Shown here piece by piece: positions 1,223-26,764 of a stretch of 61,763 nt of DNA. How positions within the stretch are numbered: the first letter of the stretch is position 1; every line of letters begins with the position of its first letter. This DNA comes from Gallionellaceae bacterium (GTDB taxonomy: Bacteria > Pseudomonadota > Gammaproteobacteria > Burkholderiales > Gallionellaceae). The translations under genes were made by a program, and so were the position numbers. The notes under the pieces are model-generated. The model saw only the letters and a list, made by a program, of their open reading frames with translations. It was not told the origin of the DNA and ran no database searches. The DNA is taken from NCBI GenBank assembly GCA_003445795.1, contig DMCN01000066.1, positions 23,294 to 85,056 on the forward strand, read 5' to 3'.

Positions 1223-1309
1223 ATGGTGCTATCCTTCACCCATAGGCGGTTACGTTTCGGACGTTCTAGGCTGGAGGGTGCGCAAGCACAACATCAGTCC
1301 CCGCCTGCT
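1223..1309 (-). ncRNA. Candidate structured RNA in the gpF-gpG spacer
   Basis: Minus-strand pairings: AGGCGG/CCGCCT, adjacent GGAC/GTCC, and a GTGC-TTGC-GCAC hairpin. No covariation evidence. Confidence 0.3.
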
Positions 1310-2500
1310 TCACATCAGTTTGATCACCAGCGACCACAGCGCCAGCGCGCGGTTGTTCTTCCCCGGCCTCACCTCAAACACACAGCGATACACCTCATCC
1401 CCGATCCGTTTCCACACAATAATCATTGGTTGCCCGTGCACCGATGACTTGTCGCTCATCTCCAGCCGATCATATTCGGCAAGTACCTGCCAAACATGTA
1501 TGTAATCATCAGGAGCAGATGGACGCTGGTCTCCTCCATCATGCCCGTGGCTGGTCTCGATGTGGCGTGGTGCTTCGGCGGGCAATAAAACCATGTAGCC
1601 CTTGGTATCGATCTGCGTTATCTCCTGCAACCGGTCGTAATTCTCGACGAAACCCAGCCACAGCGGATCGGTGCGTGAATGGTCAGCCATTACCTCACCA
1701 GCGAATGAGGAAGCGCCCTGTGATGCATTGATGTAACGGTTCACGTCGCGCGTCAGCGCCTTGGTGATCGCGGATGGATAGGTGATCAGCTTATCCTGGA
1801 TGACTTGGCGCAGTGAGGTATCTATTCCAGCACCCGGTGCGTAGTCGAAACCCTTGTCGATCCCGACCTGCACGCCCGTTTTTGGGTCGATAGCATCCCA
1901 TCCTTCTGGCGGCTGGCCTTTTCCGTTGGCGATGGCCAGCATGTATTTCTCTTTGGTCACCGCTGTCACCCAGCAATGGCAACCCCAGCCGTTGATCGGA
2001 AAGTGTGTTTTCCAGAAAGGATGCGTCCAATGCAGCACCAGGCCGTCCCAGCTTTCATGCAGTGGGCGCGGGTACAGCAGGCCATCCATGTGGTGGTATT
2101 GCCAGTACGGCATCACCTTGAGCAGCTCCGGATTGGTGAGCTGCTTCCAGCGGCCGGCTGAATAGCTAGTCGCCATGTTGGTCTGGTAAATCACCTTGGT
2201 GCGCCAAGCCTCGCCGCCCTTGGTGCCTTCGCCGGTCCATCCGGTCCATCCGTGCTTGGACACGAGCTGCCTGAAATCCTTGCGGAACTGCTCCAGTCCG
2301 GTGCCTTCATTGATCGCCTTATCCACGGCGGCCCGCAGGTCATACAGTAGATCACCACCCTGCGCACCAGCCACGATGAAGGCGCGATCATGCGCTGCGC
2401 GCTCGATGTCGTCCCACGCCTCGGTGGGAAGGTTGAGCTTATTCCGAAAGAAGTCGAGCTGCTCGGCGAAAGTCTGGCGGAAAGGCGGATAATTCGGCAC
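1310..2500 (-). CDS. MuF/gp30 head morphogenesis protein with a C-terminal PBECR-like nuclease domain
   Basis: N-terminal MuF motifs (HDRAFIVAGA, IYQTNMATSYSAGRW, HFPINGWGCHC). The extra ~120-aa C-terminus 'RHIETSHG...PDDY..V..VL..YD...VWKRIG..YRCVFEVR...LWSLVIK' resembles barnase/EndoU/ColE5/RelE-like folds. Confidence 0.85.
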   Translation of the reverse strand: MPNYPPFRQTFAEQLDFFRNKLNLPTEAWDDIERAAHDRAFIVAGAQGGDLLYDLRAAVDKAINEGTGLEQFRKDFRQLVSKHGWTGWTGEGTKGGEAWRTKVIYQTNMATSYSAGRWKQLTNPELLKVMPYWQYHHMDGLLYPRPLHESWDGLVLHWTHPFWKTHFPINGWGCHCWVTAVTKEKYMLAIANGKGQPPEGWDAIDPKTGVQVGIDKGFDYAPGAGIDTSLRQVIQDKLITYPSAITKALTRDVNRYINASQGASSFAGEVMADHSRTDPLWLGFVENYDRLQEITQIDTKGYMVLLPAEAPRHIETSHGHDGGDQRPSAPDDYIHVWQVLAEYDRLEMSDKSSVHGQPMIIVWKRIGDEVYRCVFEVRPGKNNRALALWSLVIKLM

Positions 2501-2502
2501 GT

Positions 2503-4038
2503 TTACTTACCGTATTGAACGTCCGCCATACCGGCCAGCGCGGCCAACTGAAAACCCTGCGCCATGATCTTGCGCAGATCCTCCAGTGGCAGATCGCCAT
2601 AGGCGGTCAACATCGCCTCCTGCAAGGAGTTCATGCTGTCCGCCTTACCCACCAGGTCATCGACGTGTGCCATCACCGCATCCCAAGCGGCAGCAGATTC
2701 GACGTCAAGATCAACGCCATCCTGAGAAGTGAGAGCAGCTAAATTATTTTTTAGCGCGCCCTTGCTGGGTTCTGGTTTTTCCGCTCCAAGCACCGCCGCG
2801 CCTTCCTCGGCCTGAGGAATACCAGCACGCTCGTGTGCCCACTCAACCGGGATGCGCATACCGATACCGACCAGCTTTGGCAGTGACTCAGCCAGCACGC
2901 CGAGATCCTCGGAGTCATCGAACATAAACTTGAAGCGCGGCAAGCGGCGGCGGTCATCCACACCGCCTTTATTAAGAGCCAGCAGCGGATACACCAGGTC
3001 GCGCGTCAGCGTGCCGCCGAGCTGGATGCCGTCCGACTCCATCAAGTCGTGACGCACTTCGTTGTGCACGTTACCCAGGGCATTGGTGCTGCTTTTACCG
3101 TCAGCCTGGCTGGTGAGCGTGCCGCCGAGGATGGCCTTGCTCTGGCTCTTCTCGCACCACTCAACCATCGCCATGAATGGGCCTTCACTGCCTTTAGCTG
3201 CTTCTTTAAAGTCGATCATCATGCCTTCGGGGATGATGCCGGCAGCATCGTGGCCGATGCTCATTACCGCGCGCAGCAGCGTGGCTTTCTCATCATCGGA
3301 TGCACCGGACTGATAGGTACCGAGTCGCAGCGGCAGGCCGTAGATCTCCAAGAACTCCGCCAGATCACCAACCGAGTAATTCTTGAACAGATACGGCCAC
3401 GACAGCGTGCGGTGCAGGCCGCAGCGCGCGATATAGCCACTCTTGGCCTTGTGCGTGTGGGTGATCCAACCGAACGGTTGCAGCGCTTGTCCATCCAGCG
3501 AATTATCGCGCAGTCGTATCTGCGTGCGCGTCTCGCGGTCAGTCTGGAACCAGCTTTGCGGGCGATGCGTGATCTCCTTCGGCACCCACTCGCTGCCGAG
3601 ACGTTCCCACTCAATCTCCTGGCAACTGAAGCCGTGGCCGATACCGTCCAGTGCATCGAGAATCACATCCTCGAAGTTCGGCACATCCTGCAGCAACTCC
3701 TTGGCGTAACCAGCCAGTTTCTTCTCGGCTGCGCTGGCATCTCGCGGCGGCACGATGTCCCAGTCCACCGTGAGCAGCGCACGCTTGCGCTTGCCCATCT
3801 CGGCGAATATGTGGGTGTCCTTCTCTTCCATATCAATGAACAAATCGTGCTGTGCACGGATGTCGCCTTGCTCGGCATCCCCAAGGATGCGCGCCAGCTT
3901 GAGCGGCGTTAAACCGCGCGATGGATGGCTGGCGAATTCACGGTGCAACTGCGCCAGCTTCGAGGTTTGCGGCTCGACCAGCTCCGCGCGCTTGATCGGG
4001 TTGCCCGATGCGTCCAGTATTGTTGATGTGGTTACCAT
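2503..4038 (-). CDS. Portal protein (Mu gp29, DUF935)
   Basis: 'HPSRGLTPLKLARIL', 'FLEIYGLPLRLGTY', 'SKAILGGTLTS', 'ALGNVHNEVR'. Confidence 0.95.
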   Translation of the reverse strand: MVTTSTILDASGNPIKRAELVEPQTSKLAQLHREFASHPSRGLTPLKLARILGDAEQGDIRAQHDLFIDMEEKDTHIFAEMGKRKRALLTVDWDIVPPRDASAAEKKLAGYAKELLQDVPNFEDVILDALDGIGHGFSCQEIEWERLGSEWVPKEITHRPQSWFQTDRETRTQIRLRDNSLDGQALQPFGWITHTHKAKSGYIARCGLHRTLSWPYLFKNYSVGDLAEFLEIYGLPLRLGTYQSGASDDEKATLLRAVMSIGHDAAGIIPEGMMIDFKEAAKGSEGPFMAMVEWCEKSQSKAILGGTLTSQADGKSSTNALGNVHNEVRHDLMESDGIQLGGTLTRDLVYPLLALNKGGVDDRRRLPRFKFMFDDSEDLGVLAESLPKLVGIGMRIPVEWAHERAGIPQAEEGAAVLGAEKPEPSKGALKNNLAALTSQDGVDLDVESAAAWDAVMAHVDDLVGKADSMNSLQEAMLTAYGDLPLEDLRKIMAQGFQLAALAGMADVQYGK

Positions 4039-5567
4039 GCTCTTCTCCCGCTGTAATTGTCATCGGTGCGCTTCGGCACGCTCTGGTATTCGATTGGAGC
4101 CACCTCGCGCTTCATCGCATAGTGTCCAAGGAAGAGGCTGATCGCCGAGTCGCCGTGGCGCTGTAACTGCGGACCGTCTCCCTTTTGGGTCTTCGATTTC
4201 GGAAGTTTTGGCACGCCGTCGATCAGTTTCAGCGCCCGTAGATCATCCCGAACCTGAACATCCTTGGGGATATCGTCCAGTGTTCCGTCCTGCAGGGCAG
4301 CCTTGAAGCGCGGCATGTTCGCCAGGTAGAACGAATCGCTCAGCATCACCTGCTCGATGCGTGCCTGGCCGAATTTCTGTGCAGCACGTTCCGCCAGGTA
4401 TTGACCGTTTCCGCGGGCATCAAAAGCAGCCGATCTGAAGCGCGGCAGACGGCTGAGAATGTAGAAAACGATCTGTTCCTGCTGGGTAAACGGACAATTT
4501 GCCAGCTCGATCTGCCCGCGCACGCGGATGGTCAGATCGCGGCCTTCTTCCATGATGTCAAAGGTGGTCAAGTCGCCAGAGCGCGCGAAATCCTCGCCAA
4601 AGCCGTGCGCCAGATCGATATTGAGCGCATCCAGCACCGGTTTCAGGTGTTCTTCGCACCAAGCCGCCACCTCGGCATAGCGCTCGCCGTCCGGCAGGTA
4701 GGCAAACTCCGATGTCCACTTGCCGCGCACCAGCGGCGTATCCGGGTTCATGCGCGCCTCGATCAGGCCCATCGTCAGGTAAGCACCGCCCGATTGAGAC
4801 GGCACCACGTCCAGCTCTTCTGCTGCGTCGTCGCCATAGAACGCATAAGCATCGGCCACCCAGGCCGCTTCGCCTTCTGCGGTCCAGTCGATACCGCGCC
4901 GCAGGCACACACGCTGATACAGCCCTTGCTCGACCGCCTCGCGGAAGGTGATGCGGTGCACGCTGCCCTTGCGCTTGCCGGCGCGCACTTCCTGGATGAG
5001 TTCGTTGAACGGGTTGTCCTGGCCGTCGTGGGTCGAGAAGATGCGCACCTTGTCGCCCCACAGCAGCATAGCCATCGCTGCCTTTAGCAGCGCGGCCAGA
5101 TCGTTGTGGAACGCGGCCTCGTCGATAACAATCACGCCCTGCTTGCCGCGCAGGTTGGTGGGGCGAGAGCTGAGCGCCACGATGCGGCGGCCGGTGGCAG
5201 GGAAGTCGATCTTGTAGGTTTTAATCTCCTTGTCGCCGTCGACGAAGATGCCTTCCTCGATCTCCGAGGCGGCATAGTCGAAGGCGCGCGCCCACATGGC
5301 GCATGCCTCGATGTATTCCAGCGCCATGTCCTGCGTGGGACCTATGTAGAACACGTTGGAGCTGAGCTCTTCCCGTGCCGCGATCAGCACGTCGTCGGCA
5401 GCCTCGCCCCATGTCCAGCCGACGCGGCGCGACTTCTCGCCGATCTTCAGCGGGCTGTCGTCGGCGATCCATCGCTGCTGATAGGGCAATAAAGCGGGAG
5501 GCGGCGCGTCCTTGCGCGCCGCATCACTGGGGAGACCGACCGGAACGGTTTTAACTGGGGATGCCAA
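4032..5567 (-). CDS. Terminase large subunit (Mu gp28)
   Basis: 'LLPYQQRW', 'EKSRRVGWTW', Walker B 'VIVIDEAAFH', 'GEDFARSGD', C-terminal 'HGDSA'. Confidence 0.95.
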   Translation of the reverse strand: MASPVKTVPVGLPSDAARKDAPPPALLPYQQRWIADDSPLKIGEKSRRVGWTWGEAADDVLIAAREELSSNVFYIGPTQDMALEYIEACAMWARAFDYAASEIEEGIFVDGDKEIKTYKIDFPATGRRIVALSSRPTNLRGKQGVIVIDEAAFHNDLAALLKAAMAMLLWGDKVRIFSTHDGQDNPFNELIQEVRAGKRKGSVHRITFREAVEQGLYQRVCLRRGIDWTAEGEAAWVADAYAFYGDDAAEELDVVPSQSGGAYLTMGLIEARMNPDTPLVRGKWTSEFAYLPDGERYAEVAAWCEEHLKPVLDALNIDLAHGFGEDFARSGDLTTFDIMEEGRDLTIRVRGQIELANCPFTQQEQIVFYILSRLPRFRSAAFDARGNGQYLAERAAQKFGQARIEQVMLSDSFYLANMPRFKAALQDGTLDDIPKDVQVRDDLRALKLIDGVPKLPKSKTQKGDGPQLQRHGDSAISLFLGHYAMKREVAPIEYQSVPKRTDDNYSGRRAW

Positions 5568-6063
5568 GGATCCGGCTCCTGATCTCTTTGACCGCCGAGG
5601 CGGACAGGCCGCCCTTCTTGGCGATCTTCTCGACGGCAGATGCCGCCGACTCAGCCTTGGCGCGCACCTCTGTGGCCCATTGTTTCTGCTTCACCGTAGC
5701 GTTGGAAAGGCGTGCGACCATGAGGCCGATCTCCTTCATCGGTGCGCCTTCTTCCATTTTTAGTAAAGTCTCGAACGCCTTTTGCTGCACTAGGCGGATC
5801 AAGGCATCGTTCATCGAGCCTTCATCGTCCGGTACCGATTCTGATATCGCCTTGGCCTGCTCGGTGGCCAGCTTGAGCGCACGCATGCGCTGCTCGAACT
5901 CTTGCCCGTAGCGGTTGATGCTGGACTTGCCGATCACAAAGCCGCGCCCGGCCAGCTCCTGCTCCAGCAGTTCGTACCCCGAGAAATTGCCTTGCACCAG
6001 CGCGCGGTCAAGCCACGCCTTAACCTCGGTCGGTAGTTGCTTGATCTTGGAACGTGGTGGCAT
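5551..6063 (-). CDS. Mu gp27-like (DUF3486) protein, probable terminase small subunit
   Basis: 'MPPRSKIKQLP..VKAWLDRAL', 'KSSINRYG'; directly upstream of the large subunit. Confidence 0.85.
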   Translation of the reverse strand: MPPRSKIKQLPTEVKAWLDRALVQGNFSGYELLEQELAGRGFVIGKSSINRYGQEFEQRMRALKLATEQAKAISESVPDDEGSMNDALIRLVQQKAFETLLKMEEGAPMKEIGLMVARLSNATVKQKQWATEVRAKAESAASAVEKIAKKGGLSASAVKEIRSRILGIPS

Positions 6064-6064
6064 A

Positions 6065-6376
6065 TCAGCCGCCCCAGTATTTCTTCGGGCGTGCGATGCC
6101 CGGATCGCACTCGACCGTATATTCAGCCAAATCCGTTCCGTAACGCGTCAGGTCGGCGAACCAGCGACCTGACGGTTGCTTATCCAGCAACACCAGCTCG
6201 CGGTCGGAGAGATAGTCCAGCACGCGCCGCACTTCGAGCGCTGTGGCATCTGGAAACATGCCCTGCACGGTGGCCAGGATCAATTCCTCGTATGCACCGA
6301 CTGGGCTAGCGTTGTACAACGTCAGGATAACGAGCCAGCGCATGGTCTCGCGGCGGACTTTTTCTTGGTCAATCAT
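6065..6376 (-). CDS. Mu gp26-like winged-helix protein
   Basis: 'LDYLSDRELV...LTRYGTDLAEY...PGIARP'; ATG at 6376 chosen for its overlap with the upstream stop. Confidence 0.75.
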   Translation of the reverse strand: MIDQEKVRRETMRWLVILTLYNASPVGAYEELILATVQGMFPDATALEVRRVLDYLSDRELVLLDKQPSGRWFADLTRYGTDLAEYTVECDPGIARPKKYWGG

Positions 6377-6728
6377 TTTTTCTTGCCCCCTGTATTTGAA
6401 CCACCTCAAGTTTGCTGTACAGCGCATCCAGCTTGGATTCGATCACCGTCTGCCCACGTATGTAGTCTTCGCGCCTGACATACAGCACCGGCAAGCTGAT
6501 TTGGAAGGCTGAAAAATCCTTTTCAAACTGGCGCAGTTGTTCGGCCACTTTGATGTCTTCGGCCGCGCGCTTGGTCAGATCGGAGTTGATCGATGTAAAA
6601 CGCTGGTCCAGCAGCGCCTTGAACTGTTTCACCAGAATCGTCCCGAATGCCCACACCACCAAGGCAAAGGCCACAATGCACGATGCAATGCCGGTGATCA
6701 GTTGCCACAATTCAATCTGCACTTGCAT
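6369..6728 (-). CDS. Membrane-anchored coiled-coil protein (Mu gp25-like)
   Basis: N-terminal transmembrane helix then 'LPVLYVRREDYIR...IESKLD'; conserved position before gp26. Confidence 0.65.
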   Translation of the reverse strand: MQVQIELWQLITGIASCIVAFALVVWAFGTILVKQFKALLDQRFTSINSDLTKRAAEDIKVAEQLRQFEKDFSAFQISLPVLYVRREDYIRGQTVIESKLDALYSKLEVVQIQGARKND

Positions 6729-6951
6729 ATCTGCCTTTCAATTTCTTCAATCGTTCATTCCGTTCCTGGCACTCCGCGCAGAACTGCACACCAGGGATAG
6801 CCTCGCGCCGCTTTTCCGGTATCGGCTCCCCGCAATGCGGATCCGTGCAAAACTCTGCCGATGCAACTGTGGGTGTGGGCATGATTGCCTGCTTCTGGCG
6901 GGCCTCCCACTCGTCCGCCTCGATTTCCTGTGCTCTATCTGCTGGTCTCAC
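6712..6951 (-). CDS. TraR/DksA-family C4 zinc-finger protein
   Basis: 'D.AQEIE', 'CTDPHCGEPIPEKRREAIPGVQFCAECQ'. Confidence 0.85.
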   Translation of the reverse strand: MRPADRAQEIEADEWEARQKQAIMPTPTVASAEFCTDPHCGEPIPEKRREAIPGVQFCAECQERNERLKKLKGRYASAD

Positions 6952-6960
6952 TGTGGATCC

Positions 6961-7245
6961 TTAAAGGTTGCTCGGTGACACAGACAGTTCGCCCTGGCAC
7001 GCGCCCTGATAAGGCGCATCCGTCTCCCAGCGATACTTCCAGGTGCCCTTCTCGGTCAGCGCCACATCGCACTGGAACGAGCCGACACCCAGCCGGGTTA
7101 CGGTGCCGGGGTAGGTGTAATTCGTGGTGACACCGGCGGGTGTCTTTACCTTCAGCGTCGCCGTGGCGGGGTCGGCAGCCGCGCCCGCCATATCCTTCAC
7201 CTGCATCGATATGCGCCCCATCTCGCCTACCAGCCAATTAGCCAT
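6961..7245 (-). CDS. Hypothetical all-beta (Ig-like) protein
   Basis: Beta pattern 'TLKVKTPAG...GVGSFQCDVALTEKGTWKYRWET'; start overlaps the upstream stop. Confidence 0.6.
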   Translation of the reverse strand: MANWLVGEMGRISMQVKDMAGAAADPATATLKVKTPAGVTTNYTYPGTVTRLGVGSFQCDVALTEKGTWKYRWETDAPYQGACQGELSVSPSNL

Positions 7246-8293
7246 GCGCCACCTCCGCAGTCAGGCTTGCCACACGGCTGAGTGAATCGCTCAACGTCCA
7301 CAAGCGCAGCGCCTGCGCGCTGTGGCTGCTTGTGCGGCCCACAGACGGCGTGATCGAGGCGAGTCGTGCAATGCCAGCCGACAGGGCCGCGATGCGCGCC
7401 ACAGCCCCGCTGAGGCGCACCGGGTGCATCAGCATGAAGACGGTCAGGCTGCCGCTGGCCAGCGCCTGCGCCAGGGCATCGGCGCTCAGCGCGATGCGGG
7501 CCGTCAGCTCACCGGCGGCACCAACCAATGCGGCGGCTGGGCCAGTCAAGTGGATCTGCGTGGTGAGGATCGCGGCGGCGCTGGCCTGCGCTTGCGCAGC
7601 GCCTTCCAGTTGCGCGGCAGGGCCGGTGAAAGCGCCGCTGGCGCTGGCTTGGGCCGATGCATCGCCCGCCAGCGGGATAGCGCTGGTCAGCCCGGCAGCG
7701 GCCACGGCCTGCGCCAGCGCACCGCCGCCCAGCGTTATCTGTGCGGTAAGTTGTCCGTTGACGGTGACCAGCGCGATGGCGGCCCCGGACAGCGAGATCT
7801 GCGCGGACAGGTCGCCCGATGCGCCAACGCTGGCGATAGCTGCGCCGCCGAGCGAGATGCCAGATGTCAGCGCGGCGCTGGCATTGGCTTGTGCGATGGA
7901 ATCGGCATACAGCTTGATGGCAGTAGTGAGAGCGCCGGTGGCCGCAGACACCGCAACAGCGGCACCGGCCAGTTCGGCAGCAGATCCGCCGACCGTCAGA
8001 TCGGCGGCGGCTGTAGCCTGCGCAACCGCATCGGCATTGAGCCTGATCGCAGCATCGAGCGCGCCGGTCGCCGTGGCCAGCGCGACGGCATCGGCGTTGA
8101 GTTGTATTGCAGATGACAGCGCGCCCGTGGCAGCGGCCAGCACTGCGGCATCACCCGCCAACGCGGCAGCGCCCGCAGAGACGGTGAACAGGTCGTCTTC
8201 AAGGACCAAGGCAGAATCGGGCGCATCCCAGGCGAACTCATCGCCTATCCATGCGCCTTCGTCCAGATCGTGCTGAAAGTTATCTCTCTGCAT
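7238..8293 (-). CDS. Ala/Gly-rich repeat protein, putative fibre shaft
   Basis: About 12 tandem ~20-aa repeats (I-x-L-x-G/A-x-A-x-A-x-A-x-A-x-G-x-L) followed by ~10-aa repeats. Confidence 0.7.
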   Translation of the reverse strand: MQRDNFQHDLDEGAWIGDEFAWDAPDSALVLEDDLFTVSAGAAALAGDAAVLAAATGALSSAIQLNADAVALATATGALDAAIRLNADAVAQATAAADLTVGGSAAELAGAAVAVSAATGALTTAIKLYADSIAQANASAALTSGISLGGAAIASVGASGDLSAQISLSGAAIALVTVNGQLTAQITLGGGALAQAVAAAGLTSAIPLAGDASAQASASGAFTGPAAQLEGAAQAQASAAAILTTQIHLTGPAAALVGAAGELTARIALSADALAQALASGSLTVFMLMHPVRLSGAVARIAALSAGIARLASITPSVGRTSSHSAQALRLWTLSDSLSRVASLTAEVAHG

Positions 8294-8296
8294 GGC

Positions 8297-9127
8297 TTAT
8301 CCGTGAAGGAGCTTGCCGCGCCCCTTTACCGTTCCGGTTGAAGTGGCCGTGCAAAGCATCAATCCCATCAAGCATGCATCGTTGCGAATCTTGGGGAAGC
8401 CGAGTTGCGCATAGGTGAATAGCGCCGTTTTGTTGGCTACGGCTTCTGTGGACATCTCGGTGCGGTGCCTTGTGCAGGTGATGCCGAAGTTGCCTGCCGT
8501 ACCTGTCGAAGCAGACAGGGTGACGCTGTTCACGCCACGGATGAACTTGCCGTTGGTCACCAGCGTATGCAGCGGAGTCATCCGGCCTGCAGGCATCGCT
8601 GTGCCGCCGATGGCGATGGCGGTAAGGTTGCCGGTAGTGCCGTCGCCATACGTGACGTTAACGGTAGCGTTGGAAGCCGTTGCGCCTGTCGCGGTGTACC
8701 ACTCCAACCACCAGGACAAATCGGAGTAATCTACATCGCCCAGGCGCTCTGCGGCCGGTGCAGTCACAGTTAGATCACAGCTCGTTGTGTTCTGCCCGGT
8801 GGTGACGTTGCCTACCAGTCCACCGAAATGAAGCAGTCGGTCGTGGATCTCAAGGTTGTTGTTCGCGTTGCCCGTTTGCAGCGTGTGCCAGCCGATGTAG
8901 GAGACCGCAGGGTCGGTCTGATTCGTGAACGGATGCGCGCCTGCCAAGGCGCTGGTGCAGACCGCAGAAGCTGCCGGGATAGCCGCCTGTGTCGGAATTC
9001 CCGTTGCTCTCCAGAGCGAGCAGTAAGTACCGGCCACCTGCGTGGCGATGGAAGCCTTGTCCCAGACCAGTTTTTCGTGCTGGTTTCCAAGCTTACTCAC
9101 CAGCGCATCGCGCGTATCGATGGTCAT
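8297..9127 (-). CDS. Hypothetical Thr/Gly-rich beta protein, probably structural
   Basis: 276-aa ORF translationally coupled to its neighbours; beta-rich composition. Confidence 0.65.
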   Translation of the reverse strand: MTIDTRDALVSKLGNQHEKLVWDKASIATQVAGTYCSLWRATGIPTQAAIPAASAVCTSALAGAHPFTNQTDPAVSYIGWHTLQTGNANNNLEIHDRLLHFGGLVGNVTTGQNTTSCDLTVTAPAAERLGDVDYSDLSWWLEWYTATGATASNATVNVTYGDGTTGNLTAIAIGGTAMPAGRMTPLHTLVTNGKFIRGVNSVTLSASTGTAGNFGITCTRHRTEMSTEAVANKTALFTYAQLGFPKIRNDACLMGLMLCTATSTGTVKGRGKLLHG

Positions 9128-9288
9128 ACGGCCTCCAGATAGGAAGCATCGAAGCCGCCCGCATCCTGATCGAGGATGAAGACGGTCGTTCCGTCCGGGT
9201 TATTCACGATGTCTGCGATGGTGTAGACGCCGGGAAAAGACTCGGCGAACACCCCGACAACGCGCACTGGCTGGCCGATTGCGAACAT
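9124..9288 (-). CDS. 54-aa hypothetical protein (below ORF-track cutoff)
   Basis: MFAIGQPVRVVGVFAESFPGVYTIADIVNNPDGTTVFILDQDAGGFDASYLEAV; fills the gap exactly and its stop overlaps the next ATG. Confidence 0.7.
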   Translation of the reverse strand: MFAIGQPVRVVGVFAESFPGVYTIADIVNNPDGTTVFILDQDAGGFDASYLEAV

Positions 9289-9291
9289 GGC

Positions 9292-9795
9292 TTAGTTGTC
9301 GAGCTGCAAGGTGGCTGCGCCCGCCGCAAAGCTGGGGGCGGCATCGCCGTTGTTGATCGTCTTGGGCGTGGTCAAGGCGGTGCGCCATAGCAGGTTGCCC
9401 GAGGTGGACGCATCGAACACGCAGTACTCGGTAACCAATCCCCAGCTCGCCGTGGGTGCCGGGAAGGTGATCGCGGCGTTGTTACTGGTGGTGCCGCCCG
9501 TACCGCTTGATGCGGCGGTGCTGCCAGCCGATTGCGTACCCGCCCAGTTAGCCAGGCTGGAGGTGACCGCCACCCTGGCATAGCTGCCGCCCGTGACCTC
9601 GGTGCCGCAGGCCGCATCCGACCCGGTGCTGGTCGCCAGCGCGACGTACACCGTGACGGGCATGGTGTACGCCTGGCCGCGCAGCAGTGCGTCGACGAGC
9701 TTGTTTTCGAGGTAGTCGGAAAGTGCACCGGCTTGCACCACAGCGGTGAAAGCCAGCAGCAACAGTCCGGTGATGAGGCGTTTAACTTTGTTCAT
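9292..9795 (-). CDS. Phage fibre-associated structural protein ('SDYLENKL' family) with an N-terminal signal-peptide-like extension
   Basis: AAGGA RBS; MNKVKR-LITGLLLLAFTAV-VQA/GALSDYLENKL; core 'GTEVTGGSYARVAV', 'ITFPAPTASWG', 'FDASTSGNLL'. Confidence 0.75.
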   Translation of the reverse strand: MNKVKRLITGLLLLAFTAVVQAGALSDYLENKLVDALLRGQAYTMPVTVYVALATSTGSDAACGTEVTGGSYARVAVTSSLANWAGTQSAGSTAASSGTGGTTSNNAAITFPAPTASWGLVTEYCVFDASTSGNLLWRTALTTPKTINNGDAAPSFAAGAATLQLDN

Positions 9796-9807
9796 GTCGT
9801 CGTCCTT

Positions 9808-10050
9808 TTAACGGTGAGAATCGCATTCGGCCAGCTTACGGAGCTGGTCGCGGCATTGGCTGTAAAGCTCCATCGACTCGATGTGGTTGTCGCGCAAGTC
9901 CGCCAACCTTCCCGACTTCGCCGGTGGCGGTGCTGGACAATCGGTAGTCAAGTTTGCCGAGCAGGGGCGCGGCTGTATTAGCGTTGGCTGCGTTCCAGAG
10001 GCGCAGGCTGTTAGCATCAAGGCTGCAATCAGCGGTAACAGGGTTTTCAT
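9808..10050 (-). CDS. o-spanin (Rz1-like lipoprotein)
   Basis: Lipobox LTAC, Pro-rich, second Cys; overlaps the 3' part of the i-spanin. Confidence 0.85.
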   Translation of the reverse strand: MKTLLPLIAALMLTACASGTQPTLIQPRPCSANLTTDCPAPPPAKSGRLADLRDNHIESMELYSQCRDQLRKLAECDSHR

Positions 10051-10291
10051 TGGCTTTCTCCTTGATCGTTCGGTACACCACACGGATCTGCTCGCGCGAG
10101 GTTTCGCGCGACTGGGCTACTTGTTCACGGCCTGTATTGGTTTCGTCCACCTTGGCTTGCGCGGCCTGCTGCGCTTGGGTTTGGTCGATGGCGCAGGCGG
10201 ACGACGCATGCTTGTCGCCATAGGCGTAACCGATACCGAACAGCGCGATAGATGACACAACCACGGCCAGCCAGTAGTTGAACGGGCTCAT
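9836..10291 (-). CDS. i-spanin (Rz-like)
   Basis: N-terminal TM, coiled coil, 'CSLDANSLRLWNAAN'; follows the holin. Confidence 0.8.
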   Translation of the reverse strand: MSPFNYWLAVVVSSIALFGIGYAYGDKHASSACAIDQTQAQQAAQAKVDETNTGREQVAQSRETSREQIRVVYRTIKEKANENPVTADCSLDANSLRLWNAANANTAAPLLGKLDYRLSSTATGEVGKVGGLARQPHRVDGALQPMPRPAP

Positions 10292-10524
10292 TCCATCCTC
10301 CCCAGACCAAACATCAGCGGGGCTGTGGTGACGACACGCAGCGCAGTGTTGGCGACCGGAATCAGGATCGCCAACCACTGGTAGATTTCAGGCGATACCA
10401 GCGGCTTGATGGCCTCGTACTTCACTTCCAGCACGATGCCGATGGCCGAGAGCAGGTTCACCCACAGGGTGCGGGACTTGTACCAGGGCTTGAGTTCGAC
10501 GACGCGCGCCACTTGAGTGTCCAT
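10288..10524 (-). CDS. Holin-like membrane protein
   Basis: Two hydrophobic segments, 'WYKSRTLWVN'; lies between endolysin and spanins. Confidence 0.75.
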   Translation of the reverse strand: MDTQVARVVELKPWYKSRTLWVNLLSAIGIVLEVKYEAIKPLVSPEIYQWLAILIPVANTALRVVTTAPLMFGLGRME

Positions 10525-10532
10525 GTGATTTC

Positions 10533-11003
10533 CTATGCGACGGTGTTGCGTGAGAGGGAAAGCCCGGCGGTATAGCTGACGCGGCCCTTGTCAAAATGGG
10601 CGGTCAACTCTTCGCAGCGATTGTTGTGGCGGGAAATAGCGAGATGCACCCACGCCCCTTCGTGGATGAGCTGGTCGTAATCGATCAGCGACCCGGCGAT
10701 CTTTTGTGCCACTTCCAGCGGGCTACCGAAGTCAGGGGCGATGAAGTCGACAGCCAAGCCATGCATGTGCGCACTGGTCTTCGCCCCGCCGATGGCCGCA
10801 TTGAGCGCCGGGCAGCGATAGCCGCTGCTGATGTAGATCGGAACGCCCAACTGCGCGCGCACACGCTCCATCGTGTCGGCAAGCAATCCAAGATTGCGCA
10901 CCACCTCGAAAGGCGGGTTGCTGTTGTTGATGCCCAAACGCAGCGCGGTGTCCGAGCGCAGCATTTCGTCCAGGGAAAAGTGATCAGTCAGGCGGAGTTT
11001 CAT
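10533..11003 (-). CDS. Endolysin, peptidase M15 family
   Basis: 'LTDHFSLDEM', 'ISSGYRCPALN..IGG...SAHMHGLAVDF', 'WVHLA'. Confidence 0.9.
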   Translation of the reverse strand: MKLRLTDHFSLDEMLRSDTALRLGINNSNPPFEVVRNLGLLADTMERVRAQLGVPIYISSGYRCPALNAAIGGAKTSAHMHGLAVDFIAPDFGSPLEVAQKIAGSLIDYDQLIHEGAWVHLAISRHNNRCEELTAHFDKGRVSYTAGLSLSRNTVA

Positions 11004-11161
11004 GCCTTGCTCCAGCGCGAAGGCTCAATCAGGCAAAGGGATCGCTCAACGGTGTAATGCCCCACCGGACGCTTTGCGCATGAGCCGTAGTAATCCATGC
11101 GCGGATCGGTATGGCGCGTCCAGTTGGCACAAGTGCCGCAGGTGTGTTGAGGTGTGTTCAT
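11000..11161 (-). CDS. 53-aa four-cysteine mini-protein, first gene of the left late arm
   Basis: MNTPQHTCGTCANW...GSCAKRP...CLIEPSRWSKA; stop overlaps the endolysin ATG; missed by the ORF track. Confidence 0.65.
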   Translation of the reverse strand: MNTPQHTCGTCANWTRHTDPRMDYYGSCAKRPVGHYTVERSLCLIEPSRWSKA

Positions 11162-11169
11162 GGCACGCG

Positions 11170-11217
11170 AGGTTACGCGCGCGCGGGGAGAGGGTTAAGC
11201 CGGAAACGTTTCCGCAA
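11170..11217 (-). promoter_or_regulatory. Late promoter (left arm): Mor/C-type dyad CGGAAACGTTTCCG + CTTAAC-N18-TAACCT
   Basis: 24 bp identical, inverted, to 24101-24124; palindrome at 11201-11214; same 18-nt spacing to a -10-like hexamer. Confidence 0.75.
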
Positions 11218-24102: not shown

Positions 24103-24148
24103 GCGGAAACGTTTCCGGCTTAACTGCATCGGTCGCCATCGCCAGAAT
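24101..24148 (+). promoter_or_regulatory. Late promoter (right arm): dyad CGGAAACGTTTCCG + CTTAAC-N18-CAGAAT
   Basis: Identical 24-mer to 11194-11217 (inverted). Confidence 0.75.
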
Positions 24149-24155
24149 GGCAACC

Positions 24156-25265
24156 ATGAAACGCAAACCCAAATCCCCTGCTCTTGGCTTCGCCGTCGCC
24201 GCCTGTTCGGTGGCGATGAATGCTGCAGGCGAGATCCAGCTCACACCCGCAGGCGTCTTTCGTGGCAACGATGGCCGCCCGAAGGATGCGCCGCACTGGG
24301 TGATGGATGCGCAGGCCGCCCAGGATGTAATCGCATTCTGCTCTGCGCGCCAGAACGAATTCGTCATCGACTACGAACACCAGACCCTGCTGGCCGAAAA
24401 GAACGGCCAGCCCGCTCCTGCGGCGGGCTGGTTCTCCGGTGCTGCGCTGCGCTGGGAGGAAGGCGTCGGCCTGTTCGTCAAATCCCGCTGGACATCCCGC
24501 GCTCAGGAATTCATCTCCAACGATGAATACAAGTACATCTCGCCGGTGATCCTCTACGAGAAGGTCACCGGTCGCATCAAAGGCATCATCAGTGCCGCCC
24601 TCACCAATACCGCTTGCATCGACGGCATGGACGAAGTGCTGTCCCGTGCCGCCGCCAGTTTCATGTTGGACGAATCAACCTCAAAGGAGAATGGAATGGA
24701 TGAACTGCTCGAACAGCTGCGCTGGTTTTTCAACATGCCGACGCTGGCAACCGCCGAAGATATCCTCGCGGAACTGAAAAAAGCCGTCGACAAGATCAAG
24801 ACAGCCGCGCCGGAAGCAACTGCCGCTGCCGGCTTCCGTGTCGACAACCTGGTCGCCTCGCTCGGCACCGAAGTCGCCGCGCTGAAGTCTGCATCGCCAG
24901 ATCCTGCCAAGTTTGTGCCGGTGGACACCATGCAGGCGCTTCAGACCGAACTGGCAGCGCTGCGCAGCGAGAAGACCGAGCGTGAAGTCGGCGAGGTGGT
25001 CACCGCCGCGCTGTCGTCCGGCAAGCTGCTGCCGCCCCAGGAGAAGTGGGCGCGCGATCTGGGCATGAAGGATCTCGATGCGCTGAATGGCTACGTCGAG
25101 AGCGCGCAAGGTGTGGCCGCACTGACATCCACTCAGACCAAAGGCAAGCAGCCCCAGGGCACGGCTGATGCAAACGGCCTCGACGAAACCCAGCTCGCAG
25201 CATGCAAGTTGCTGGGGGTCGATCCGGCCGATTACGCCAAGACTTTGTCCGGCGTAGACGACTAA
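24156..25265 (+). CDS. Prohead protease I with internal scaffolding protein Z
   Basis: 'IQLTPAG.F...DGRP', 'VIDYEHQT', 'APAAGW', 'YKYISPV', 'SAALTN'. Internal AAGGAG + in-frame ATG at 24696 as in Mu I/Z. ORF-track start 24147 overlaps the -10. Confidence 0.9.
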   Translation: MKRKPKSPALGFAVAACSVAMNAAGEIQLTPAGVFRGNDGRPKDAPHWVMDAQAAQDVIAFCSARQNEFVIDYEHQTLLAEKNGQPAPAAGWFSGAALRWEEGVGLFVKSRWTSRAQEFISNDEYKYISPVILYEKVTGRIKGIISAALTNTACIDGMDEVLSRAAASFMLDESTSKENGMDELLEQLRWFFNMPTLATAEDILAELKKAVDKIKTAAPEATAAAGFRVDNLVASLGTEVAALKSASPDPAKFVPVDTMQALQTELAALRSEKTEREVGEVVTAALSSGKLLPPQEKWARDLGMKDLDALNGYVESAQGVAALTSTQTKGKQPQGTADANGLDETQLAACKLLGVDPADYAKTLSGVDD

Positions 25266-25285: not shown

Positions 25286-25687
25286 ATGGCTTTAGCAGCT
25301 GATCGCGATACACATATGCAGGATGGCGAGCTGATCTCGGCGCCCATCGCTGCCAACGTCAAGGCATTTGCGGGCGGCCTCGCTGCTGCGAACGCCACCG
25401 GCTACGCCACCCCCGGCGCAGTCGCCACCACGCTGACCTACCTGGGGCGCTTCGAAGAGACCGTGGACAACACGGGCGGTGCCGCCGGTGCAAAGAACGT
25501 TCAGATTCGCCGCAAGAAAGCGTTCAAGTTTAAAAACTCCGGCGCGGATGCGGTGACTCAGGCCAGCCTCGGCAAGGTCTGCTACATCGTGGACGACGAA
25601 ACCGTTGCTTTGACGAACGGCGGCAACACGCGTTCTGCGGCTGGCACCGTCATTGGCTTGGACGCTGATGGCGTCTGGGTGCAGTAA
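25286..25687 (+). CDS. DUF2190-like head decoration/cement protein
   Basis: GGGAGA RBS; 'ALAADRDT', 'VTQASLGKVCYIVDDETVA', 'RSAAGTV...D.DGVWV'. Confidence 0.75.
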   Translation: MALAADRDTHMQDGELISAPIAANVKAFAGGLAAANATGYATPGAVATTLTYLGRFEETVDNTGGAAGAKNVQIRRKKAFKFKNSGADAVTQASLGKVCYIVDDETVALTNGGNTRSAAGTVIGLDADGVWVQ

Positions 25688-25726
25688 TCCGTCGACCACA
25701 TCCCTCTACCAATTAGGAGATATCAC

Positions 25727-26764
25727 ATGAGACTCACCAAACCCCTGTTCTGGATCTTCGGCACGATTGTGCTGGCCGCGATCTGTCTGATCGTCGGCGC
25801 GCCTTCCGCGCCCGCCGCACATTCGTTCGATGTTCCCGCCATCGGCATGGCTGGCATGCTGGTCAACAAAGACACGCTGGCCAGCATCTTCACCGGCCTG
25901 AAAACCATCTTCAACAACACGCTGAAGGCAGCGCCGGGCAATTGGTCGGCGACGGCGATGGAAGTGCAGTCCGATGCCGAGGGCGAAGACTACATGTGGC
26001 TCAGCCGCTTCCCGAAGCTGCGCAAGTGGTTGGGTGACAAGGTCGTCAAGAACCTCAAGGCCGGTAAGTACTACAAGGTCAACGAAGATTGGGAAACCAC
26101 CATCGCCGTCAAGCGCAATCATATCGACGACGACCGCCTGGGGATCTACAACACGCAGGCTCAACAGGCTGGCGAAGCGGCCTCCGAACTGCATGACATC
26201 ATCGTTGACGATCTGAAGAACAAGGCGTTCACCGAAGCCTGCTTCGACGGTCAGTTCTACTACGACACCGATCACCCGGTGAAAGATGCCAGCGTGAGCA
26301 ACAAGGGCACGATGGCGCTGTCTTGCGCAACCAAGGCGGCCGCAGTGGCAAGTTACGGCGCGGCGCGCACCACGGTCATGAGCTTCAAGGATGAAGAAGG
26401 CATGCCGCTGCGCCTGATCCCGGACACGCTGGAAGTTCCGCCCGCGCTGGAAGCCACGGCCCGCACGCTGTGCGAGTCGGACAAGCTGGATGACAACTCA
26501 CCCAACCCGTACAAGGGTTCCGCGACTGTGCTGGTGAACCCGGCGCTGACCAGTGCCACCGGCTGGATGCTGCACGTTACCAAGAAAGCTTCGGTGAAGC
26601 CGTTCATCGTGCAGATGCGCAAGAAGCCGATCTTTGTGTCGCAGACCAGCGCAGACAACGACGACGTGTTCAACCGTGCCGAGTACAAGTTCGGCGCCGA
26701 AGCGCGCGCAACCGGTCTGTATGGCTACTGGCAGCTGTCTTACGGCAGCACCGGCGCGGCTTAA
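25727..26764 (+). CDS. Major capsid protein (Mu gpT family) with a ~43-aa hydrophobic N-terminal extension
   Basis: AGGAG RBS; 'EDYMWL..FPKLRKWLGD', 'CFDGQFYYDTDHPV', 'VPPALEATA'; extension MRLTKPLFWIFGTIVLAAICLIVGA... Confidence 0.92.
   Translation: MRLTKPLFWIFGTIVLAAICLIVGAPSAPAAHSFDVPAIGMAGMLVNKDTLASIFTGLKTIFNNTLKAAPGNWSATAMEVQSDAEGEDYMWLSRFPKLRKWLGDKVVKNLKAGKYYKVNEDWETTIAVKRNHIDDDRLGIYNTQAQQAGEAASELHDIIVDDLKNKAFTEACFDGQFYYDTDHPVKDASVSNKGTMALSCATKAAAVASYGAARTTVMSFKDEEGMPLRLIPDTLEVPPALEATARTLCESDKLDDNSPNPYKGSATVLVNPALTSATGWMLHVTKKASVKPFIVQMRKKPIFVSQTSADNDDVFNRAEYKFGAEARATGLYGYWQLSYGSTGAA

What the first reader, a model, noticed from the sequence alone, without database searches (positions are those of the whole stretch)
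25727..25855. Major capsid protein begins with a membrane/signal-like segment
Seen: strong AGGAG RBS, then MRLTK-PLFWIFGTIVLAAICLIVGA-PSAPAA, ~43 aa ahead of the Mu-T-like 'MLVNK', which has no evident RBS. Together with the signal peptide at 9795, two structural proteins of this phage carry export-like leaders. Inference: membrane-tethered head assembly with release by signal peptidase or protease I, which would be an undescribed morphogenesis route.
Basis: partly seen in the sequence, partly recalled or inferred. Interest (0 to 1): 0.7.

Follow-up and report, generated by a model that had tools for sequence, protein, structure and literature searches.

The report
Signal-peptide-like leader on phage capsid protein
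The only major capsid gene of this Mu-like prophage is made with a 43-residue, secretion-signal-like N-terminal leader; related phages carry or lack this leader as a swappable cassette, which is unexpected for a protein that must build capsids in the cytoplasm.

Summary
The gpT capsid gene (PF10124) starts at 25727, behind AGGAG and a 7-nt spacer. It does not start at the internal Met at 25856, which has no ribosome-binding site.

About 150 distinct relatives carry an equivalent leader:
- a basic N-terminus (K/R 316, D/E 1);
- a hydrophobic core of about 20 residues;
- an AxA motif;
- an acidic linker with almost no K/R;
- a conserved junction, [LM]-P-x-[ILVF]-x-[FLM]-[GA]-G, directly before [M/L/I]LVN.

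In many relatives the canonical Met codon is CTG, ATA or ATC, so only the long form can be made there. Every leaderless relative has its Shine-Dalgarno sequence (SD) directly at the canonical ATG.

The leader is a discrete in-frame cassette. A relative whose core is 97% identical lacks it, and a 59-sequence tree needs at least 11 gains or losses. No other phage gene tracks it: not the five-gene Gp80 module, and no rhomboid protease is present.

My reading is an optional, removable, Sec-type targeting propeptide. The mechanism is untested (membrane staging, LepB or protease I cleavage). I found no description in the literature or in cultured phages, and public gene calls often truncate it. This is a new variant of a known kind, of moderately high interest.

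The parts
25715..25719 (+). Shine-Dalgarno AGGAG, 7 nt before the leader ATG
   Evidence: The homologous AGGAGATA in leaderless L081 sits directly before ATG-CTC-ATC.
25727..25741 (+). Leader n-region MRLTK (net charge +2), including the true start codon
   Evidence: Across 150 leaders the n-region has K/R 316 against D/E 1.
25742..25801 (+). Leader h-region, residues 6-25: PLFWIFGTIVLAAICLIVGA
   Evidence: mean Kyte-Doolittle (KD) hydropathy 2.57 over 19 residues. AF2 predicts a helix at 7-23.
25802..25816 (+). Leader c-region, residues 26-30 (PSAPA). The candidate signal-peptidase-I site is A28-P29-A30 | A31.
   Evidence: Read from the sequence. AxA followed by a non-Pro residue occurs in 108 of 118 leaders, against a shuffle mean of 93 and maximum of 104. 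The site is rule-based; SignalP was not run.
25817..25855 (+). Linker and conserved junction, residues 31-43: AHSFDVPAIGMAG. It ends in the near-invariant Gly (-1) before the canonical N-terminus.
   Evidence: Gly at -1 in 115 of 118 leaders, Pro at -7 in 73, I/L/V/F at -5 in 116. AF2 predicts disorder, with pLDDT below 50 for residues 29-44.
25856..26764 (+). Mu-like gpT major capsid core (302 aa plus stop). It equals the whole protein of leaderless relatives and of the public 302-aa gene call.
   Evidence: PF10124, E = 4e-72. Matches the JBD30 capsid protein 8rkc at E = 2.5e-41 and 9jod. P0001 is the 302-aa call.
24147..25265 (+). Mu-like protease I / scaffold gene, the candidate enzyme for trimming at the junction
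   Evidence: PF10123, E = 3e-114. Present in both leader-bearing and leaderless loci. Its N-terminus is not signal-peptide-like.
25286..25687 (+). Conserved 133-aa head-module gene between protease I and gpT
   Evidence: Present in all compared loci of both classes. No Pfam hit.

Best explanation
The capsid gene starts at 25727 and encodes a pre-capsid protein. This is the canonical 302-residue Mu-like gpT preceded by a 43-residue leader built like a Sec-type signal peptide:
- a basic tip;
- a hydrophobic helix of about 20 residues;
- Pro and A-x-A;
- a short acidic, disordered linker;
- a conserved hydrophobic-Gly-Gly junction abutting the canonical first residue.

Shown:
- The leader is translated.
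- It is under purifying but relaxed selection for signal-peptide properties.
- It is a discrete in-frame cassette inserted directly after the start codon.
- It has been gained, lost or exchanged many times among otherwise near-identical transposable phages.
- It needs no dedicated phage partner gene.

Inferred:
- The leader takes newly made capsid subunits to the inner membrane or the Sec/SRP machinery.
- It is removed before the lattice matures, because in solved gpT-family capsids the native N-terminus packs at capsomer interfaces.
- Removal would be by host signal peptidase at A-x-A, by prohead protease I at the invariant Gly | [M/L/I] junction, or by both. Cutting at the junction would recreate exactly the N-terminus of leaderless relatives.
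- Its benefit is accessory. Candidates are control of when and where free capsid protein accumulates, or shielding it from cytosolic sensors. It is not an essential assembly step.
For: - **Start site.** There is an SD before 25727 and none before 25856. In 20+ genome loci and 80 viral loci every leaderless gene has an AGGAG-type SD 5-10 nt before the canonical ATG. Every leader-bearing gene lacks an SD there and has one before the leader ATG. The canonical codon in leader-bearing genes is ATG, CTG, TTG, ATA, ATC, CTC or CTT.
- **Signal-peptide properties.** Over 118 leaders the n-region net charge is +2 or +3 in 112, and the median best 15-residue KD hydropathy is 2.49. AxA followed by non-Pro occurs in 108 of 118, above all 200 shuffles. 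Gly is at -1 in 115 of 118. Over the enlarged set of 150 leaders, the region after the h-core has K/R 18 against D/E 249, and 134 of 150 have no K/R there.
- **Coding signal.** GC3 is 0.74. Pooled pN/pS is 0.53 for the leader and 0.17 for the core.
- **Cassette nature.** The window differs from L081 by 129 nt inserted after the ATG, with a shared RBS. Their cores are 97% identical. L013 and L015 differ in the same way. The tree needs at least 11 changes, at least 6 of them forced by strongly supported branches.
- **Only capsid gene.** There is one gpT gene per phage record.
- **Structure.** AF2 predicts a helix at 7-23, disorder at 24-47, and the core from residue 48. In JBD30 the capsid protein is resolved from residue 2, with N-termini at pseudo-twofold contacts (PMC11445458).
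- **Likely active relatives.** Many CheckV-complete records carry the leader. Methylophaga thiooxydans DMS010 holds 12 or more identical copies at scaffold ends, and its canonical codon is ATC.
Against: - There are no experimental data of any kind.
- A Sec signal with N-in topology would export the whole capsid domain to the periplasm. Portal, protease and terminase carry no such signal, and DNA packaging cannot occur there. Membrane engagement must therefore be transient or abortive, and I cannot show that.
- AxA enrichment over shuffles is modest because the leaders are Ala-rich.
- The invariant junction points to a cytoplasmic cut that needs no membrane step.
- The h-region is long (about 20 residues) for a cleaved signal peptide.
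- No dedicated predictor (SignalP, DeepTMHMM) was available.
Confidence: 0.55

Rival explanations
1. The leader is a purely cytoplasmic propeptide. Its hydrophobic helix acts inside the procapsid or on free subunits. It could be a mini delta-domain, an assembly brake, a chaperone handle or a mask against capsid-sensing defences. Protease I cuts it off at Gly | [M/L/I]. The resemblance to a signal peptide is a by-product, and the membrane is never involved.
For: - The junction is the best-conserved part of the leader (Gly at -1 in 115 of 118).
- Cutting there would recreate the N-terminus of leaderless relatives.
- Protease I is present and conserved in both classes, so a cassette could work immediately after transfer.
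- In the main clade, protease I itself carries a conserved A-[IL]-[DE]-G-[ML] stretch after its protease domain, of the same phi-x-G | [ML] form.
- N-terminal fusions on gpT domains that need removal exist elsewhere, such as the ClpP-gpT fusions in Paracoccus phages (PMC6536676).
- This reading removes the topological problem of exporting a capsid protein.
Against: - It does not explain the strict charge dipole: K/R 316 against D/E 1 before the hydrophobic core, and K/R 18 against D/E 249 after it.
- It does not explain the Pro plus A-x-A c-region. Both are hallmarks of membrane-inserted, signal-peptidase-cut leaders.
- The protease-I DG[ML] stretch is missing in the distant clade, which still has leaders ending FGG | L.
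- No second copy of the junction motif occurs in the other head proteins of the window.
Confidence: 0.25
2. The leader is a fully functional secretion signal, and a substantial share of the capsid protein is really exported to the periplasm. There it has a second, non-structural role, or it saturates the Sec translocon and signal peptidase late in infection. Capsids are built from the fraction that stays in the cytoplasm.
For: All the rule-based signal-peptide features are present, including depletion of basic residues in the early mature region, which favours translocation. The hydrophobic cores are strong enough for SRP-type targeting (median KD 2.49).
Against: - There is a single gpT gene per phage, and in about 40% of leaders there is no internal start codon. 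Export would therefore drain the only capsid supply.
- No other head protein carries a leader.
- No periplasmic function of an HK97-fold capsid protein is known (my own knowledge).
- Near-identical phages do without the leader.
Confidence: 0.1
3. The extension is an annotation artefact. Translation starts at Met44 (25856) as in public gene calls, and the upstream open frame is untranslated spacer.
For: The protein collection holds this gene as a 302-aa call (P0001). In a 60% G+C genome, 43 stop-free codons can occur by chance. The closest relative has no leader.
Against: - There is no SD before 25856 and a strong one before 25727.
- About 150 relatives keep the frame open with conserved signal-peptide properties and pN/pS below 1.
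- In many relatives the canonical codon is CTG, ATA, ATC or CTC.
- Leaderless relatives have a stop a few codons upstream and an SD at the ATG.
- The NCBI 302-aa call P0014 is the same gene as L001, whose DNA carries a full leader, so short calls are start-site miscalls.
Confidence: 0.05

Closest known systems
Mu-like major head subunit gpT (Pfam PF10124), e.g. the Pseudomonas phage JBD30/D3112 capsid protein (PDB 8rkc) and 9jod (305 aa; I take it to be phage Mu gpT from the length, not checked)
   Same: Residues 44-345 are a full-length family member. The gene sits after protease I in a Mu-like head module.
   Different: Solved and cultured members start at the canonical Met and are not N-terminally processed (JBD30 is resolved from residue 2). 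This gene has 43 extra N-terminal residues.
Sec-type signal peptides cut by signal peptidase I (LepB), including the leader of the filamentous-phage M13 procoat
   Same: The n/h/c architecture, the Pro plus A-x-A, and an acidic, K/R-free early mature region. M13 shows that a phage coat protein can be made with a cleavable leader (my own knowledge).
   Different: The cargo is an HK97-fold capsid protein of a tailed phage, which must assemble with cytoplasmic portal, scaffold and terminase. There is no second transmembrane segment as in procoat. Export and cleavage are untested.
N-terminal propeptides of tailed-phage capsid proteins removed at maturation (HK97 delta domain, T4 gp23 N-terminal 65 residues, P2 gpN 31 residues); my own knowledge
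   Same: An N-terminal extension ahead of the N-arm, most likely removed. A prohead protease gene lies two genes upstream.
   Different: The leader is short, strongly hydrophobic and shaped like a signal peptide. It is optional among near-identical phages, whereas those propeptides are fixed and essential in their lineages.
Staphylococcal phage 80alpha capsid and scaffold leaders cut by the host protease Prp (my own knowledge; also raised in earlier scan notes)
   Same: It is a precedent for a short capsid-protein leader processed by a host enzyme rather than a phage enzyme.
   Different: The 80alpha leaders are 13-14 residues long, mimic ribosomal protein L27 and are cytosolic. No such motif is present here, and the scaffold protein here has no leader.
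Membrane-associated initiation of T4 prohead assembly (portal gp20 with membrane protein gp40); my own knowledge
   Same: It is a precedent for a membrane stage in tailed-phage head assembly, ended by proteolytic maturation.
   Different: In T4 the portal vertex contacts the membrane, not each capsid subunit. No signal peptide is involved.

Membership tests
Mu-like gpT major capsid protein (PF10124) | Profile match above the curated cut-off over the whole domain | tested here: met
   243 bits against a 20.1-bit cut-off, from residue 51. E = 2.5e-41 to the JBD30 capsid protein 8rkc.
Mu-like gpT major capsid protein (PF10124) | Position in a Mu-like head module next to protease I / scaffold | tested here: met
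   Protease I (PF10123) at 24147-25265. The order I, 133-aa gene, gpT is conserved in 40 loci.
Mu-like gpT major capsid protein (PF10124) | Only capsid gene of an otherwise complete phage | tested here: met
   One gpT match per record in 21 records. Portal, TerL, gp27, MuF, protein G and tail genes are all in the window.
Sec-type signal peptide (signal peptidase I class) | Positively charged n-region | tested here: met
   MRLTK, charge +2. 112 of 118 leaders are +2 or +3.
Sec-type signal peptide (signal peptidase I class) | Uninterrupted hydrophobic h-region | tested here: met
   Residues 6-25, mean KD 2.57. AF2 helix at 7-23. At about 20 residues it is at the long end for cleaved signals.
Sec-type signal peptide (signal peptidase I class) | c-region with small residues at -3/-1, no Pro at +1, helix breaker upstream | tested here: met
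   P26 ... A28-P29-A30 | A31. AxA followed by non-Pro in 108 of 118 leaders against a shuffle maximum of 104. This is rule-based only.
Sec-type signal peptide (signal peptidase I class) | Early mature region free of basic residues | tested here: met
   K/R 18 against D/E 249 after the h-core. 134 of 150 leaders have none.
Sec-type signal peptide (signal peptidase I class) | Actual translocation and cleavage by LepB | not testable with these tools
   Needs reporter fusions, fractionation and N-terminal mass spectrometry. SignalP was not available either.
Lipoprotein signal peptide (signal peptidase II) | Lipobox [LVI][ASTVI][GAS]C at the end of the h-region | tested here: not met
   The only Cys is in A-A-I-C, with Ile at -1. 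Most relatives have no Cys in the leader.
Tat signal peptide | Twin-arginine motif in the n-region | tested here: not met
   The n-region is MRLTK. Relatives have MKK or MKS.
HK97-type delta domain / prohead-protease-removed propeptide | N-terminal extension ahead of the N-arm in a phage that encodes a prohead protease | tested here: met
   The leader precedes the N-arm helix at 48-68. Protease I is encoded two genes upstream.
HK97-type delta domain / prohead-protease-removed propeptide | Long (about 100 residues) helical or coiled-coil scaffold-like domain, fixed in the lineage | tested here: not met
   43 residues with one hydrophobic helix. Present or absent among near-identical phages.
HK97-type delta domain / prohead-protease-removed propeptide | Cleavage by the prohead protease | not testable with these tools
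   There are only indirect leads: the invariant Gly at -1 and the similar phi-x-G-[ML] stretch in protease I of the main clade.
80alpha-type Prp-processed leader | Short leader mimicking the L27 N-terminus, shared by capsid and scaffold proteins | tested here: not met
   No such motif in the leader. The protease I / scaffold N-termini show no shared leader.
Rhomboid-coupled capsid leader (earlier AI notes on Bacteroidales phages) | Phage-encoded rhomboid protease travelling with the leader | tested here: not met
   PF01694 was found in 0 of 28 related phage records, while all 14 control genomes were positive.

The most novel reading that the evidence does not exclude
A horizontally exchanged signal-peptide cassette on the major capsid protein defines a membrane-staged branch of tailed-phage head assembly. 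Capsid subunits would be parked at the inner membrane or Sec machinery as precursors. They would be released by host signal peptidase and/or the prohead protease only when assembly proceeds. Its patchy, arms-race-like distribution would reflect a pay-off such as hiding free capsid protein from cytosolic capsid-sensing defence systems. Unverified notes from this scan report similar leaders on unrelated capsid proteins, so this may be a recurrent, overlooked strategy that routine start-codon calling hides.
Probability: 0.25. Interest if true: 0.85.

Novelty: new variant of a known kind. Interest (0 to 1): 0.66.

Why it matters
Capsid proteins of tailed phages are textbook cytoplasmic proteins. 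A conserved secretion-type leader on the sole capsid gene of many transposable phages means one of two things. Either there is an unrecognised membrane or Sec-linked step in head morphogenesis, or signal-peptide architecture has been co-opted for a cytoplasmic job.

The cassette is optional between phages that are 97% identical in the capsid core. Natural with/without pairs therefore exist for clean experiments.

There is also a practical point. Homology-guided gene callers truncate the leader: the 302-aa calls for this gene and for L001 are examples. The feature is therefore systematically hidden in databases.

If the leader affects recognition of the capsid protein by bacterial immune sensors, it would be a new type of counter-defence.

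Tried and rejected
- **Co-occurrence with the five-gene Gp80 fibre module.** Rejected: PF23140 was found in 2 of 17 leader-bearing records and 0 of 11 leaderless records.
- **Any partner gene.** I clustered the ORFs of 11 leader-bearing and 10 leaderless complete records. No cluster tracked the leader; the best uncorrected p was 0.03 among 102 clusters.
- **Phage-encoded rhomboid,** as in earlier notes on Bacteroidales phages. Found in 0 of 28 records.
- **Signal-peptide-like leaders on protease I or the 133-aa protein.** None in either class. Portal, terminase and MuF were not flagged by the window scan.
- **A second copy of the junction motif in other head proteins of the window.** None found apart from a weak portal match.
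- **Dual initiation at the internal Met.** Rejected as a general mechanism: there is no SD there, and many relatives have non-start codons at that position.
- **Lipoprotein or Tat signal.** The motifs are absent.
- **Leader in cultured phages.** None of the 100 rows listed of the 319 matching phage records aligns before residue 37. Three checked by hand (Mx4, FP_Mushu, Ralstonia YO381_1) have none.
- **Literature.** Six full-text searches gave nothing on signal peptides on Mu-like or other tailed-phage capsid proteins.

Full report
**What is there.**
- The ORF at 25727-26764 (+) encodes 345 residues.
- Residues 51-345 match Pfam Mu-like_gpT at 243 bits. Residues 44-345 align to the solved capsid proteins of Pseudomonas phage JBD30 (8rkc, 304 aa) and to 9jod (305 aa), both of which begin at the canonical Met.
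- Upstream lie Mu-like protease I (24147-25265, PF10123) and a conserved 133-aa gene (25286-25687).
- The upstream gene stops at 25685-25687. AGGAG lies at 25715-25719, and the ATG at 25727 follows after 7 nt.
- The 43 extra residues are MRLTK, then PLFWIFGTIVLAAICLIVGA, then PSAPA, then AHSFDVPAIGMAG, followed by MLVNK. No SD-like word precedes the internal ATG at 25856.

**Is the extension translated?** A search of 5.8 billion proteins gave 1816 relatives at E ≤ 1e-10. About 100 of the best 120 are 333-358 residues long and start with MKK, a hydrophobic run, AxA, a variable linker, and then GG[M/L/I]LVN. At the canonical first position, 65 have Met, 37 Leu and 3 Ile.

I fetched DNA for 80 genome loci and 80 viral-contig loci and read the upstream frame of each. 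The result is a clean dichotomy:
- Every leaderless gene has a stop a few codons upstream and an AGGAG-type SD 5-10 nt before the canonical ATG.
- Every leader-bearing gene has no SD there and has its SD before the leader ATG. Its canonical codon is ATG, CTG, TTG, ATA, ATC, CTC or CTT.

The leader in the window has coding-like GC3 (0.74, against 0.58 and 0.51 at codon positions 1 and 2). Across 14 close pairs the pooled pN/pS is 0.53 for the leader and 0.17 for the core. This is relaxed but purifying selection, as expected for signal peptides.

Each of 21 full phage records has exactly one gpT gene. The long form is therefore the capsid protein precursor.

The protein collection's 302-aa call for this gene (P0001) is a start-site miscall. 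So is the NCBI 302-aa call P0014, which is the same gene as locus L001, whose DNA holds a full leader.

**What kind of leader is it?**
- Over 118 distinct leaders, the n-region net charge is +2 or +3 in 112.
- The best 15-residue KD hydropathy has a median of 2.49.
- AxA followed by a non-Pro residue lies at residues 15-36 in 108 of 118. Shuffles give a mean of 93 and a maximum of 104 in 200 trials.
- The last positions form a motif D-x-[LM]-P-x-[ILVF]-x-[FLM]-[GA]-G, with Gly at -1 in 115 of 118.
- Over 150 leaders, K/R against D/E is 316:1 before the hydrophobic core and 18:249 after it. In 134 of 150 there is no basic residue after the core.
- AF2 with a 108-sequence alignment predicts a helix at 7-23, a disordered stretch at 24-47 (pLDDT below 50 at 29-44), and the core from helix 48-68.

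These are the rule-based hallmarks of a signal peptide of the Sec / signal peptidase I class. There is no lipobox and no twin arginine. No dedicated predictor was available.

**The leader is an optional cassette.**
- The closest relative, L081 (a 39.2-kb provirus record), has a core 97% identical to the window's and the same AGGAGATA ribosome-binding site. It runs ATG-CTC-ATC-AAC directly. The window has 129 extra nucleotides inserted after the ATG.
- The Methylobacter pair L013/L015 is 96% and 91% identical in the flanks and differs by the same kind of indel, about 165 nt. L013 also retains a duplicated remnant of the end of an upstream gene, which points to import by recombination.
- On a tree of 59 cores whose leader status I verified from the DNA, the leader needs at least 11 changes, at least 6 of them forced by strongly supported branches. 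In the window's strongly supported clade, 15 sequences have it and 11 do not.
- One Methylobacter contig holds two prophages, one with the leader and one without (L014 and L022).
- The I, 133-aa, gpT gene order is the same in both classes.

**Does anything travel with it?**
Gp80 (PF23140) is in 2 of 17 leader-bearing records and 0 of 11 leaderless records.
- ORF clustering of 11 against 10 complete records found no associated gene.
- No record encodes a rhomboid protease.
- Protease I and the 133-aa protein have no leader in either class. Portal, terminase and MuF were not flagged by the window scan.
- Any processing must therefore use host enzymes or the conserved protease I.

**How it most likely works.** In JBD30 the capsid protein is resolved from residue 2. 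Its N-termini meet at pseudo-twofold capsomer contacts, and the N-arm refolds during maturation (PMC11445458). The window's core is 97% identical to a leaderless one, so the mature lattice must be the same. A 43-residue hydrophobic appendage on every subunit is therefore most likely removed; this is an inference.

Two candidate cuts exist:
- A28-P29-A30 | A31, by host signal peptidase.
- G43 | M44, at the near-invariant junction. This would recreate exactly the leaderless N-terminus, and protease I is the obvious candidate.

Main-clade protease I proteins carry a conserved A-[IL]-[DE]-G-[ML] stretch of the same form. The distant clade lacks it yet still has leaders, so this is only a lead.

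The charge dipole and c-region argue that the leader really engages the membrane or the Sec machinery. The difficulty is topology. Normal N-in insertion would export the capsid domain, away from portal, scaffold and terminase. I therefore favour transient or abortive engagement, meaning precursor parking followed by release. I rate the full mechanism at only moderate confidence.

The rivals are:
- a purely cytoplasmic propeptide cut by protease I (0.25);
- genuine export with a second function or Sec saturation (0.10);
- an annotation artefact (0.05).

**Comparison with what is known and novelty.**
- Capsid-protein propeptides are known: the HK97 delta domain, T4 gp23, P2 gpN, and the 80alpha leaders cut by host Prp. 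M13 procoat has a cleavable leader, and T4 proheads start on the membrane.
- A Sec-type leader on an HK97-fold capsid protein of a tailed phage did not turn up in six literature searches.
- None of the 100 rows listed of the 319 matching phage records aligns before residue 37, and three checked by hand have no leader.
- Earlier unverified AI notes of this scan report signal-peptide-like leaders on unrelated capsid proteins: Bacteroidales phages with a rhomboid protease, and a 45.8-kb phage. Those notes suggest a wider phenomenon, but they are not independent evidence.
- I class this as a new variant of a known kind.

**Limits.** The signal-peptide calls rest on simple rules. The gene-content comparison is small and phylogenetically structured. 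Activity of leader-bearing phages is inferred from intact, CheckV-complete records and from 12 or more identical copies at scaffold ends in Methylophaga thiooxydans DMS010, not shown directly.

Noticed in passing
window 555-24050 compared with L183+L184 (record of L081): The lysis-packaging arm (MuF, portal, TerL, gp27, endolysin; about 1300-11200, minus strand) is inverted and lies left of the repressor. In the closest relative's record the same genes follow the early region in the standard B3/BcepMu order. This could be a real inversion or an assembly issue; I did not resolve which.
   Followed up: partly
window 25856-26764; L001 6001-6927: Public gene calls start this gene and its L001 homologue (NCBI, 302 aa) at the internal Met. 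Homology-guided start selection therefore systematically hides the leader.
   Followed up: partly
L025-L035, L050 (Methylophaga thiooxydans DMS010): Twelve or more identical copies of a leader-bearing Mu-like prophage sit at fixed distances from scaffold ends. This looks like an actively transposing phage in the sequenced culture. Its capsid gene has ATC (Ile) at the canonical start position. The strain is cultured and could serve as an experimental system.
   Followed up: no
L013 2440-2485: Directly upstream of the leader cassette there is a roughly 20-nt duplicated remnant (CTTATTAC.CAGCGCTTAATT) of the 3' end of the upstream gene. The leaderless sister L015 lacks it. It looks like a recombination scar from import of the cassette.
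   Followed up: partly
window 9292-9795 (-): A Gp80-family protein (PF23140, 'podophage GP4 fibre I') has a classical signal-peptide-like N-terminus, MNKVKRLITGLLLLAFTAVVQAGA|LS. The Pfam domain starts only at residue 24. The family is present in only 2 of 28 related phage records.
   Followed up: partly
window 1310-2500 (-): The MuF-like protein carries a C-terminal PBECR3 (barnase/EndoU/colicin-like) nuclease match. The match is below the curated cut-off (23.4 bits against 30).
   Followed up: no
L014 and L022 (same Methylobacter contig JAGXGY010000027.1): Two Mu-like prophages lie about 19 kb apart in one host contig, one with the capsid leader and one without. The same host can therefore harbour both forms.
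   Followed up: no
window 24147-25265; gpI alignment: In the main clade, protease I proteins share a conserved ALTN-x-P-A-[IL]-[DE]-G-[ML] stretch at the protease/scaffold boundary. This stretch is deleted in the Desulfobacterota-type clade. It may be an autoprocessing site.
   Followed up: no
G000:C47:43584-44204 (-), locus L204: The same genome holds a second, distant gpT homologue (27% identity, 354-aa open frame) on another contig. I did not examine it.
   Followed up: no
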